Shown one piece after another: positions 1 through 1,034 of a stretch of DNA of 1,034 nt. The notes under the pieces are model-generated. The model did no database searches and had not been told where the DNA came from. It worked only from the letters and a program-made list of their open reading frames with translations. Made by a program: the position numbers and the translations under genes. The stretch lies in NCBI GenBank assembly GCA_000004985.1, contig GG739604.1; one strand, 5' to 3'. The stretch comes from Naegleria gruberi. Lineage: Eukaryota. Within the stretch, counting starts at the first letter, position 1. Every line of letters starts with the position of its first letter.

Positions 1-186
1 AATTGTTTTACTGATCTTGGAAATCTTCTTAATAGCATGTCCTGTTGCATCAGAAACAATAAGGTCACCATTGGACAATCTTGCAATCTTTTGTGGATCA
101 ACAAATTCTCCATTTCCACCAGCAAATGTACTAATTCCGTATATATAGGTTGCAGCTTCGTTGTTGGAATTGCCAGATGTAACATT
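1..186 (-). other. Downstream NHL-like segment that resumes after the EGF cassette (probable start of a further beta-propeller blade)
   Basis: The segment NVTSGNSNNEAATYIYGISTFAGGNGEFVDPQKIARLSNGDLIVSDATGHAIKKISKISKTI contains STFAGGNGE and GDLIVSDATGHAIKKI. These resemble the T-hAG-x-G and G-x-hYIAD-x-x-N-x-hRKI elements of the upstream NHL blades. The match is looser than for blades A-C. Confidence 0.45.
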
Positions 187-1034
187 ACAATTAGAACCAG
201 TCCATAAACCAGTGCATGAACATTGATCCAAAGATAAACAAGAACCGTGACCTCCACAAACAGAGCTATCATTTGAAGCAACACCAAAACATGAAGTGAC
301 ATTACAGTTTGCACTATACCATCCTTGTTTGCAAACACAAGTTTCAGTATTGACACAAGAACCATGTCCACTACAAACAGAATTATCATTTGAAGAAACA
401 CCAGAGCATGAAGTAATGTTACAGTTTGCGCCAGACCATCCTTGTTGACAAACACAAGTGTCAGTATCAAAACATAATCCATTTCCATTACAAGCAGAAT
501 TTTCACTAGCGTCTACATCATAACACACGGTTTGCTTGGTGGAGAGTAATCTAATTCTACCATTTTTAGCATCAGCAATATAAATTTCAACATCTGAAAC
601 AACCAAAATACCAGTTGGAAGAGATAATCCTCTTGAGGTGGCAATTCTACCATCAGAGAAAGAGGCAGTACCATTACCGGCAATTGAGACAATAGTACCA
701 TTGGTTAAAACCATTCTGACTCTGTTATTGTCAGTATCAGCAATCAACATTTCACCATTTGAGAGGAATGCAACATCAGTTGGATGATTCAAATTGGCAG
801 CAGTGGCCAAAATATTGTCACCATTGAATGGTCCAGCACCAGTACCAGCAATTGTTGTAATAACTCCACTAACATCAATCTTTCTAACTTTGAAATTATT
901 ACTATCTGAAATGTAAACTTCATCATTAACAACTCTAACACCATAAGCTTGAGATAAGGCAGCACTTATTGCTTGACCACCATCTCCAATATGACCTGAT
1001 TGACCATTACCAGCAAATGTGACAATAGTGCCAT
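1..1034 (-). CDS. Internal fragment of a large extracellular multidomain protein (NHL repeats, three EGF-like modules, then an NHL-like segment); partial at both ends
   Basis: The reverse-complement frame (codons at + positions 1030-1032 down to 1-3) has no stop in 344 codons, whereas every other frame is full of stops. The translation shows recognisable NHL-repeat and EGF-like motifs. Codon bias is strong and consistent (AGA/CAA/GAA/CCA/GGT), which argues for genuine coding sequence. There is no start or stop codon inside the window, so the gene extends beyond both edges. Confidence 0.9.
184..534 (-). repeat. Three tandem 117-nt coding repeat units (184-300, 301-417, 418-534) encoding the EGF-like modules
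   Basis: Direct alignment of + strand segments gives 241-300 vs 358-417 = 49/60 identical (82%) and 301-357 vs 418-474 = 47/57 identical (82%). The other halves of the units are more diverged, so similarity is mosaic. Confidence 0.8.
187..525 (-). other. Three tandem EGF-like cysteine-rich modules (non-calcium-binding type)
   Basis: Module 1 (nt 421-525) is CYDVDASENSACNGNGLCFDTDTCVCQQGWSGANC. Module 2 (nt 304-408) is CSGVSSNDNSVCSGHGSCVNTETCVCKQGWYSANC. Module 3 (nt 187-291) is CFGVASNDSSVCGGHGSCLSLDQCSCTGLWTGSNC. All three have six Cys with identical spacing C-x10-C-x5-C-x5-C-x-C-x8-C. The tail C-x-C-x2-G-W-x4-C fits the classical EGF-like signature (C-x-C-x(2)-[GP]-[FYW]-x(4,8)-C). The modules recur every 39 aa. 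None has a D-x-D-E-C calcium-binding motif at its N-terminus. Confidence 0.8.
541..1034 (-). other. NHL-repeat (beta-propeller blade) array, three blades
   Basis: Blade A (nt 877-1034) is TIVTFAGNGQSGHIGDGGQAISAALSQAYGVRVVNDEVYISDSNNFKVRKI. Blade B (nt 706-876) is VITTIAGTGAGPFNGDNILATAANLNHPTDVAFLSNGEMLIADTDNNRVRMVL. Blade C (nt 541-705) is TIVSIAGNGTASFSDGRIATSRGLSLPTGILVVSDVEIYIADAKNGRIRLLS. Each follows the NHL consensus (h-x-T-hAG-x-G ... GDGG-x-A ... L-x-x-P-x-Gh ... G-x-hYIAD-x-x-N-x-hR+h) with a period of about 55 aa. Confidence 0.8.

What the first reader, a model, noticed from the sequence alone, without database searches (positions are those of the whole stretch)
1..1034. Extreme codon bias with a eukaryote-like signature; possible non-prokaryotic origin of this contig
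All 9 Arg codons are AGA, all Gln are CAA, all Glu are GAA and all Pro are CCA. Gly is GGT or GGA with almost no GGC and no GGG, Asn is predominantly AAT, and Ser is mostly TCT or TCA. GC content is roughly 36-40%. No CGN arginine codons at this GC content is atypical for bacteria and typical of AT-rich eukaryotes (dictyostelid social amoebae or yeast-like fungi), where such usage also marks highly expressed genes. The 'SGHG-x-C ... C-x-C-x2-GW-x-G-x2-C' EGF flavour and the Asn/Ser/Thr/Gly-rich composition are reminiscent of the tenascin-like EGF proteins abundant in dictyostelids. If this window comes from a nominally prokaryotic assembly or metagenome bin, it may be eukaryotic contamination or host DNA, or less likely a horizontally acquired eukaryote-like adhesin.
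Basis: inference. Interest (0 to 1): 0.5.

Follow-up and report, generated by a model that had tools for sequence, protein, structure and literature searches.

The report
Naegleria gruberi NHL–EGF surface-protein gene fragment
The window is a 1-kb scaffold of the published genome of the amoeboflagellate Naegleria gruberi, holding part of a gene for an extracellular NHL-propeller/EGF protein, so its eukaryote-like codon bias simply reflects eukaryotic origin and is ordinary.

Summary
The minus strand (window 1032→1) is one open 344-codon frame with AGA 9/9, CAA 9/9, GAA 7/7, CCA 4/4, no GGG, GC 37.3% and GC3 19%. ENC is 31, against 44 expected from GC3. The bias is partly plain avoidance of G at third positions, which is enough to explain CAA and GAA. 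It is also partly a strong CpG shortage (obs/exp 0.20; no CGN or NCG codon), plus codon-specific choices (CCA, AAG, TTG).

The origin is settled. The ORF is 340/340 identical to XP_002667938.1/EFC35194.1, "predicted protein, partial [Naegleria gruberi]", on a contig of exactly 1034 bp. Its taxon guess (dictyostelid or yeast) is wrong: Naegleria is a heterolobosean. No contamination scenario is needed.

The protein fragment is three NHL β-propeller blades, three tandem 6-Cys teneurin-type EGF modules (117-nt DNA repeat), a short linker, then the first blade of another NHL module. Relatives carry signal peptides, and one carries a transmembrane helix. I infer a secreted or membrane-anchored, glycosylated binding protein. 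It is not a teneurin.

Bacterial genomes hold only distant relatives of the NHL part (25–35% identity). Interest is low; the sequence is already known.

The parts
1..1032 (-). Single open reading frame, 344 codons, partial at both ends. Residues 1–340 (window 13–1032) equal XP_002667938.1/EFC35194.1 of Naegleria gruberi.
   Evidence: Six-frame translation, 0 stops in this frame against 5–48 in the others. BLASTP 340/340 identical. Accessions and contig length 1034.
868..1032 (-). NHL β-propeller blade (residues 1–55; motifs IVTFAGNG … VYISD).
   Evidence: Pfam NHL PF01436, 71 bits against a cut-off of 20, 4 stretches; TEN_NHL 41.5 bits. Motif positions. pLDDT 83–97.
697..867 (-). NHL blade (residues 56–112; ITTIAGTG … MLIAD).
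   Evidence: Best Pfam NHL stretch is residues 81–106.
535..696 (-). NHL blade (residues 113–166; IVSIAGNG … IYIAD). Last blade before the EGF stalk; collinear with blade 6 of P0008.
421..525 (-). EGF-like module 1 (residues 170–204), six Cys, followed by the sequon NITS.
   Evidence: Regular expression C-x10-C-x5-C-x5-C-x-C-x8-C. Pfam EGF_Teneurin best stretch 180–206, EGF 178–203.
304..408 (-). EGF-like module 2 (residues 209–243), followed by the sequon NVTS.
   Evidence: Pfam EGF_2 best stretch 215–243. Part of the 117-nt tandem repeat.
187..291 (-). EGF-like module 3 (residues 248–282), followed by the sequon NVTS.
   Evidence: Part of the 117-nt tandem repeat.
236..505 (.). DNA-level tandem repeat, period 117 nt (39 codons), 2.3 copies, 81% matches. 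This is the EGF modules duplicated in tandem.
   Evidence: Tandem Repeats Finder score 344. The repeat finder D1: 238–354 against 355–471, 82%.
145..186 (-). Asn/Ser-rich linker (residues 283–296, NVTSGNSNNEAATY) between the EGF stalk and the next NHL module.
   Evidence: Sequence. pLDDT below 50 over 291–307.
1..144 (-). NHL-type blade (residues 297–344; STFAGGNG … LIVSD). In relative P0123 this blade is the first one, directly after a signal peptide, so a second propeller module starts here.
   Evidence: 82% identity over 45 residues to P0123 residues 26–70. P0123 sequence with N-terminal hydrophobic leader. pLDDT 75–84.

Best explanation
The window is a whole small unplaced scaffold of the Naegleria gruberi (Heterolobosea, Discoba) nuclear genome assembly. 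It carries an internal, intron-free piece of a protein-coding gene on the minus strand.

The encoded fragment has this layout:
- the last three blades of an NHL β-propeller;
- a stalk of three tandem six-cysteine EGF modules, each followed by an N-glycosylation sequon;
- a short Asn/Ser linker;
- the first blade of a further NHL propeller.

By analogy with relatives that have signal peptides and, in one case, a C-terminal transmembrane helix, the full protein is most likely secreted or membrane-anchored and extracellular. In that reading the propellers are binding surfaces, held on rigid disulfide-bonded, glycosylated EGF spacers (inferred, not shown).

The codon pattern reflects eukaryotic, AT-rich coding sequence:
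- strong preference for T over A at third positions;
- near-absence of G at third positions, except in AAG and TTG;
- near-complete avoidance of CpG, which removes all CGN and NCG codons and leaves AGA as the only Arg codon in use here;
- amplification of the pattern because the tandem repeats inherited the same codons.

Some translational selection is possible on top of this but is not shown.
For: Shown:
- 340/340 identity to XP_002667938.1/EFC35194.1 'predicted protein, partial [Naegleria gruberi]', recorded on one contig of 1034 bp, the window's length.
- Window GC is 37.3%, against 35% for the N. gruberi genome. That genome is a Sanger assembly of 1,977 scaffolds (PMC9928731).
- Naegleria genes have low GC3 and a wide ENC range, with low ENC in highly expressed genes (PMC11702301).
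- Pfam hits above curated cut-offs: NHL 71 bits, EGF_Teneurin 59.8, EGF_2 52.6, TEN_NHL 41.5.
- Three identical six-Cys spacings and six N-x-S/T sequons.
- AlphaFold models the NHL blades at pLDDT around 90–97. Foldseek matches NHL propellers 9ifo, 7djl, 6gc1 and the teneurins at E 1e-16 to 1e-8.
- Collinear 39% identity over 287 residues to P0008, which has 6 blades + 3 EGF + a TM helix.
- Signal peptides in Naegleria P0061 and in P0123.
- CpG o/e is 0.20 and the junction CpG deficit is significant.
- A 117-nt tandem repeat.
- The 185,579-species bacterial/archaeal genome set gave only 4 hits of 25–35% identity, lying essentially within the NHL part (none reaches past residue 191).
- No plasmid, phage or viral relative. 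No RNA gene or tRNA.
Against: - No Naegleria coding-sequence set could be obtained through the tools, so 'typical for Naegleria' rests on literature statements about GC, GC3 and ENC, not on a per-codon comparison.
- The scaffold is tiny and unplaced, the class of sequence in which assembly contaminants hide.
- No named N. fowleri or N. lovaniensis ortholog appeared among the 120 listed hits.
- The NHL part's highest identities (45–51%) are to bacterial and metagenomic proteins.
- N. gruberi has very little 5mC and no CpG preference (PMC12344493), so the cause of the CpG shortage is unexplained.
- The EGF stretch was modelled at pLDDT below 50.
- Localisation and function are inferred from relatives only. 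The fragment itself has no N- or C-terminus.
Confidence: 0.92

Rival explanations
1. The scaffold is a contaminant inside the N. gruberi assembly. On this view it is DNA of another AT-rich eukaryote that was co-sequenced and wrongly annotated as Naegleria.
For: - It is a 1-kb unplaced scaffold, and a second NHL fragment (P0061) also sits on a tiny 1358-bp scaffold.
- No named ortholog from other Naegleria species is among the listed hits.
- The closest partial relative, P0123, comes from a soil metagenome.
Against: - GC (37.3%) fits N. gruberi (35%).
- N. gruberi can be cultured axenically (PMC12344493).
- P0061, also labelled Naegleria, shares the family and a signal peptide.
- A repeat-rich multigene family is exactly what collapses into small unplaced Sanger scaffolds.
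- No hit points to another named eukaryote.
Confidence: 0.04
2. It is a bacterial adhesin gene from an unusually codon-biased AT-rich bacterium, or a recent bacterial-to-eukaryote transfer that still looks bacterial.
For: - The NHL region is 45–51% identical to many bacterial or metagenomic NHL proteins, some labelled adhesin or T9SS substrate.
- The best solved match is a 'teneurin-like protein' NHL domain.
Against: - A scan of one genome for each of 185,579 bacterial and archaeal species gave only four hits at 25–35% identity, lying essentially within the NHL part; none reaches past residue 191.
- The hits that cover NHL plus the three-EGF layout are unnamed metagenome or assembly proteins (P0008, P0019, P0057, P0099). 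None carries a bacterial name.
- Bacterial loci differ in codon usage, including the AT-rich L003: CGN 22/39, CpG o/e 0.96, ENC 46.
- There is exact identity to an annotated eukaryotic gene model.
- NHL repeats are consensus-like, so high identity to bacterial repeats carries little phylogenetic weight (inference).
Confidence: 0.02
3. The contig comes from a dictyostelid or a yeast-like fungus.
For: The preferred set AGA, CAA, GAA, CCA, GGT, AAG and TTG resembles the preferred codons of yeast and Dictyostelium (my own knowledge).
Against: - Exact identity to a Naegleria gruberi record.
- No dictyostelid or fungal hit is named in the list.
- GC of 37% is well above Dictyostelium coding sequence (my own knowledge).
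- The C-ending pyrimidine codons preferred in yeast are not preferred here (AAT, GAT, TAT and CAT dominate).
Confidence: 0.01

Closest known systems
XP_002667938.1 / EFC35194.1, predicted protein (partial), Naegleria gruberi NEG-M
   Same: Identical over all 340 residues of the model. The contig length equals the window length.
   Different: Nothing, except that the open frame runs four codons beyond the model's end (window 1–12).
Unnamed NHL-propeller + EGF-stalk proteins from metagenomes and an unnamed NCBI assembly (P0008; P0019 and P0057 from GCA_037189345.1; P0099)
   Same: Same domain order, NHL blades then three to five teneurin-type EGF modules. Identity is 37–39% over 83–92% of the query. 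P0008 adds a TM helix and a short tail.
   Different: In the window the EGF stalk is followed by another NHL module rather than a TM helix or the protein's end. Those loci have 45–46% GC and weak codon bias, ENC 52–56.
Teneurins (metazoan type II transmembrane proteins) and the solved 'teneurin-like protein' 9ifo/9pt5
   Same: They share the NHL β-propeller (phmmer E 1e-76 to 9pt5/9ifo and 1e-18 to teneurin-2; Foldseek E 3.5e-16 to 9ifo). They also share teneurin-type EGF modules (Pfam EGF_Teneurin 59.8 bits).
   Different: - The domain order is the reverse of teneurin and is interleaved: NHL→EGF→NHL here, against EGF→…→NHL→YD shell in teneurin.
- There are three EGF modules, not eight.
- No YD-shell, FN-plug, TTR or Tox-GHH part is in the fragment.
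- Pfam EGF_TEN scores 38.8 bits, below its cut-off of 65.
Other NHL-propeller proteins: plant SOQ1 lumenal domain, human NHLRC2, TRIM71/TRIM2/Brat, M. tuberculosis PknD sensor domain
   Same: Same six-bladed NHL propeller fold class.
   Different: Different partner domains (thioredoxin-like, TRIM or kinase), no EGF stalk, and low identity (14–18% in Foldseek alignments).

Membership tests
Naegleria gruberi nuclear genome (origin of the contig) | Sequence identity to an N. gruberi record | tested here: met
   340/340 residues identical to XP_002667938.1/EFC35194.1. That protein's only contig is 1034 bp, the window's length.
Naegleria gruberi nuclear genome (origin of the contig) | Base composition like the genome | tested here: met
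   Window GC is 37.3%, against 35% for the genome (PMC9928731). Low GC3 is as reported for Naegleria (PMC11702301).
Naegleria gruberi nuclear genome (origin of the contig) | Per-codon usage and CpG o/e matching a genome-wide N. gruberi CDS set; placement in a chromosome-scale assembly | not testable with these tools
   The tools returned no gene positions or DNA for the two Naegleria gene models I tried. No per-codon table is in the papers held. The genome paper is not held.
NHL repeat β-propeller (Pfam PF01436) | Repeated ~40–55-residue blades scoring above the curated Pfam cut-off | tested here: met
   71 bits against a cut-off of 20, four stretches. Blade-start motifs recur every 165–168 nt.
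NHL repeat β-propeller (Pfam PF01436) | Four-stranded antiparallel blades arranged as a propeller | tested here: met
   The AlphaFold model has four strands per blade at pLDDT around 90–97. Foldseek probability is 1.00 to the NHL propellers 9ifo, 7djl, 6gc1 and 6fb3. Closure into a six-bladed ring cannot be seen, because only 3+1 blades are in the fragment.
EGF-like domain (Pfam EGF_2 PF07974 / EGF_Teneurin PF23106) | Six cysteines with EGF spacing, scoring above curated cut-offs | tested here: met
   Three modules of C-x10-C-x5-C-x5-C-x-C-x8-C. EGF_Teneurin 59.8 bits against 24.3; EGF_2 52.6 against 22.1; EGF 33.3 against 21.5.
EGF-like domain (Pfam EGF_2 PF07974 / EGF_Teneurin PF23106) | EGF fold with three disulfides | tested here: inconclusive
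   The EGF stretch (residues 175–273) was modelled at pLDDT below 50, probably because the alignment was dominated by NHL-only bacterial rows.
Teneurin | Type II TM protein with eight EGF repeats N-terminal to the NHL propeller | tested here: not met
   Here three EGF modules lie C-terminal to one NHL module and N-terminal to another. Pfam EGF_TEN (the whole eight-EGF region) scores 38.8 bits, below its cut-off of 65.
Teneurin | YD-repeat shell, FN-plug, TTR-like domain and C-terminal Tox-GHH/ABD | tested here: not met
   No such Pfam family matched in the 344 residues or in the longer relatives P0019, P0057, P0008 and P0099. The full-length Naegleria protein is unknown.
   No dictyostelid protein is named among the listed hits. 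The exact match is to Naegleria.

The most novel reading that the evidence does not exclude
The NHL-propeller + teneurin-type-EGF family, seen here in Naegleria and in unnamed environmental eukaryote-like contigs, could be an independent fusion outside animals. It would join a bacterial-type NHL propeller to eukaryotic EGF modules, a parallel to the proposed chimeric origin of teneurins. It would be built into multi-module surface proteins (propeller–EGF stalk–propeller) for prey or substrate recognition in a phagotrophic amoeba. A second, minor possibility is that the marked CpG depletion with TpG/CpA excess records a CpG-specific mutational or selective process. Such a process would not be expected from the very low, CpG-indifferent 5mC reported for N. 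gruberi.
Probability: 0.12. Interest if true: 0.35.

Novelty: already known. Interest (0 to 1): 0.08.

Why it matters
It matters mainly as triage. The window should not be pursued as an odd prokaryotic gene, a contaminant or a cross-domain transfer.

It also shows what can and cannot be read from codon counts in a 1-kb window. CAA/GAA exclusivity follows from low G3 alone. The AGA-only Arg usage is tied to CpG avoidance. Internal repeats inflate the apparent bias.

The protein itself is an uncharacterised member of a modular NHL/EGF surface-protein family in Naegleria. It is of modest interest for amoeba cell-surface biology and for the history of the NHL+EGF domain combination, but nothing in this fragment is surprising to a specialist.

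Tried and rejected
- **DNA for Naegleria gene models.** The look-up of encoding contigs on P0001 and P0061 found nothing on record, so no direct comparison with Naegleria codon usage was possible.
- **EGF-plus-C-terminus-only protein search**. It returned only two hits: P0123, and a syndecan-labelled metagenome cluster, P0124. That was useful for P0123 but gave no taxonomic breadth.
- **Literature.**
  - The 1988 α-tubulin paper is held almost only as its reference list.
  - The GBE 2025 paper and its supplements give ENC/GC3 statements but no per-codon values.
  - The 2010 genome paper is not held.
  - No paper combines Naegleria with NHL repeat and EGF.
  - Assembly GCA_037189345 is not mentioned anywhere.
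  - The Naegleria + teneurin search led only to polymorphic-toxin tables unrelated to this protein.
- **Scans of other collections.**
  - Bacterial/archaeal genomes gave only weak hits to the NHL part.
  - Metagenome contigs gave two weak hits.
  - Viral contigs gave none.
  - Plasmids and phages gave no DNA match.
- **Other features in the window.** There are no Rfam families and no tRNAs. The short ORFs in the other five frames are by-products of the repeat-rich coding strand and were not pursued.
- **Methyl-CpG decay as the cause of CpG depletion.** I considered it, but it is not supported by the published N. gruberi methylome: 0.28% 5mC and no CpG preference.
- **Structure of the EGF part.** It was modelled at low confidence. 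I ran no further search on it because Pfam scores and the six-Cys pattern already settle the domain type.
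Full report
**1. What is in the window**

The listed ORFs are all short, because the real reading frame runs off both ends. Six-frame translation shows one frame with no stop: minus strand, window 1032→1, 344 codons. The other five frames have 5 to 48 stops. No Rfam family and no tRNA are present.

**2. The observation**

- AGA 9/9, CAA 9/9, GAA 7/7, CCA 4/4.
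- GGT 25, GGA 14, GGC 3, GGG 0.
- AAT 26/32.
- TCT 16 and TCA 11 of 40 Ser.
- GC 37.3%.
- Third positions: 57% T, 24% A, 14% C, 5% G.

ENC is 31.4, against 44.2 expected from GC3 alone, so there is bias beyond composition. It has several components.

(i) With G3 at 5%, all-CAA and all-GAA are unremarkable (P≈0.17 and 0.25).

(ii) AGA 9/9 (P≈6e-6 under a mononucleotide null) and CCA 4/4 (P≈0.003) are not explained by composition.

(iii) The lack of CGN belongs to a general CpG shortage.
- CpG obs/exp is 0.20, TpG 1.60, CpA 1.56.
- No NCG codon is used.
- At codon junctions there are 7 CpG, against 19.1 expected when synonymous codons are shuffled within the same protein. None of 20,000 shuffles was as low.

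(iv) G-ending codons are almost only AAG (6) and TTG (6), a codon-specific preference.

(v) The codons are not independent.
- The EGF region is a 117-nt tandem repeat at 81–82% identity.
- The NHL blades start with a 32-nt motif that recurs every 165–168 nt.

**3. Origin**

The first protein search returned P0001: 100% identity, 340 aa, a single contig of 1034 bp, named by NCBI 'predicted protein, partial [Naegleria gruberi]'. Its accessions are EFC35194.1 and XP_002667938.1. BLASTP gives 340/340 identities with no gaps. The window is therefore a whole small scaffold of the N. gruberi genome project.

The literature fits this:
- N. gruberi is a Sanger assembly of 40.9 Mb, 35% GC and 1,977 scaffolds (PMC9928731).
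- Naegleria genes have low GC3 and a wide ENC range, with low-ENC genes tending to be highly expressed (PMC11702301).

I could not obtain a Naegleria CDS set or a per-codon table. The statement that the pattern is typical for Naegleria therefore remains literature-based and partial.

**4. Rival origins**

A scan of one genome for each of 185,579 bacterial and archaeal species found four loci at 25–35% identity. They lie essentially within the NHL part; none reaches past residue 191. Metagenome contigs gave two weak hits. Viral contigs, plasmids and phages gave none.

The many bacterial and metagenomic hits (45–51% identity) cover only about 47–55% of the query, the NHL blades. These are consensus-like repeats. 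The hits that cover both NHL and EGF (83–92% of the query, 37–39% identity) are unnamed: P0008 (JGI metagenome), P0019 and P0057 (NCBI assembly GCA_037189345.1), and P0099 (ENA).

As a composition control, an AT-rich bacterial MAG locus (L003, 33% GC) uses CGN for 22 of 39 Arg and has CpG o/e 0.96 and ENC 46. The GC-richer bacterial loci are even less like the window.

The residual risk is that a 1-kb unplaced scaffold is an assembly contaminant. I rate this at about 4%.

**5. The protein**

Pfam gives NHL (71 bits, four stretches), EGF_Teneurin (59.8), EGF_2 (52.6), TEN_NHL (41.5) and EGF (33.3), all above their curated cut-offs. EGF_TEN, the full teneurin EGF region, scores 38.8 bits, below its cut-off of 65.

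The sequence shows this layout:

| Feature | Residues | Note |
|---|---|---|
| NHL blade | 1–55 | starts x-AG-x-G, ends x-[YLI]-[IV]-[AS]-D |
| NHL blade | 56–112 | same motifs |
| NHL blade | 113–166 | same motifs |
| EGF module 1 | 170–204 | C-x10-C-x5-C-x5-C-x-C-x8-C, then sequon NITS |
| EGF module 2 | 209–243 | same spacing, then sequon NVTS |
| EGF module 3 | 248–282 | same spacing, then sequon NVTS |
| Linker | 283–296 | Asn/Ser-rich |
| NHL-type blade | 297–344 | first blade of a further module |

Structure:
- AlphaFold models the blades confidently, with block-mean pLDDT around 90–97 for most of the first three blades and 75–84 for the last blade. The EGF stretch is below 50.
- Foldseek against the PDB returns NHL propellers: teneurin-like protein 9ifo (E 3.5e-16), SOQ1 7djl, NHLRC2 6gc1, then teneurins, Pizza designs, TRIM71 and PknD.
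- The sequence search of the PDB agrees.

**6. Family layout and likely function**

- P0008 has six NHL blades, three EGF modules, a hydrophobic transmembrane helix and a short tail. The window's blades 1–3 and EGF 1–3 are collinear with P0008's blades 4–6 and EGF 1–3, at 39% identity over 287 residues.
- P0061, the other Naegleria fragment, and P0123, from soil run SRR3989338, begin with signal peptides.
- P0123 continues directly into a blade 82% identical to window residues 294–338. The window's last blade is therefore the first blade of a propeller module.

The Naegleria protein thus has at least two propeller modules separated by a three-EGF stalk.

I infer an extracellular, N-glycosylated, secreted or membrane-anchored protein whose propellers are binding surfaces and whose EGF modules are rigid spacers. 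Localisation, ligand and expression level are not shown.

**7. Comparison with known families**

The fragment is a member of the NHL-repeat and EGF-like domain families, and both tests are met. It works like other extracellular propeller-on-stalk receptors and adhesins.

It is not a teneurin:
- The domain order is different.
- There are three EGF modules, not eight.
- No YD shell, FN-plug, TTR or toxin domain was detected, either here or in the longer relatives.

**8. Unexplained**

CpG depletion with TpG/CpA excess looks like methyl-CpG decay. However, N. gruberi has only 0.28% 5mC with no CpG preference, and only 0.6% of its genes are methylated (PMC12344493). Whether the depletion is genome-wide in Naegleria could not be tested here.

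**9. Verdict**

It is wrong on the taxon and untested on expression.
- The object is an already annotated, uncharacterised N. gruberi gene fragment.
- Interest is low.

Noticed in passing
window 1-1032 (minus-strand ORF): There is strong CpG depletion (obs/exp 0.20) with TpG (1.60) and CpA (1.56) excess. It is significant even at codon junctions: 7 CpG against 19.1 expected, and 0 of 20,000 synonymous shuffles as low. The published N. gruberi methylome (0.28% 5mC, no CpG preference) does not obviously explain it.
   Followed up: partly
window 1-15: The RefSeq model ends at residue 340 (ATC, window 13–15), although the frame stays open to the contig end. The following coding-strand bases read A|GTAAAACAATT, which could be a GT splice donor 11 nt from the contig end. 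If so, the exon would end here.
   Followed up: no
window 187-525: Each of the three EGF modules is followed immediately by an N-[IV]-T-S sequon (residues 205, 244, 283). This suggests regularly spaced N-glycans along the EGF stalk. There are six sequons in all in the fragment.
   Followed up: partly
window 1-144, with P0123 (soil metagenome run SRR3989338): A 131-aa soil-metagenome protein has a signal peptide followed by a blade 82% identical to the window's last blade. A very close relative of this Naegleria gene, or a paralog, therefore occurs in soil data, and this blade type opens a propeller module.
   Followed up: partly
L001 424-1794 (-) and 2105-3850 (+); L002 1313-3064: An unnamed NCBI assembly (GCA_037189345.1, GC 45–46%) carries several paralogs of the NHL + 4–5 EGF family, two of them divergently oriented on one 4.2-kb contig. 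Their codon bias is weak (ENC 52–56), so they belong to a different organism, which I did not identify.
   Followed up: partly
window 1-1032: G-ending codons are almost only AAG (6 of 10 Lys) and TTG (6 of 17 Leu), although G3 is 5% overall. This is a codon-specific preference resembling the 'optimal' sets of yeast and Dictyostelium, and it may reflect the tRNA pool rather than composition.
   Followed up: no
PDB entries 9ifo / 9pt5 against window residues 1-163: The best solved match by far (phmmer E 1e-76, several overlapping repeat alignments) is a recently released 'teneurin-like protein' whose NHL blades are about 50% identical to the window's. The tool output does not give its organism.
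   Followed up: no
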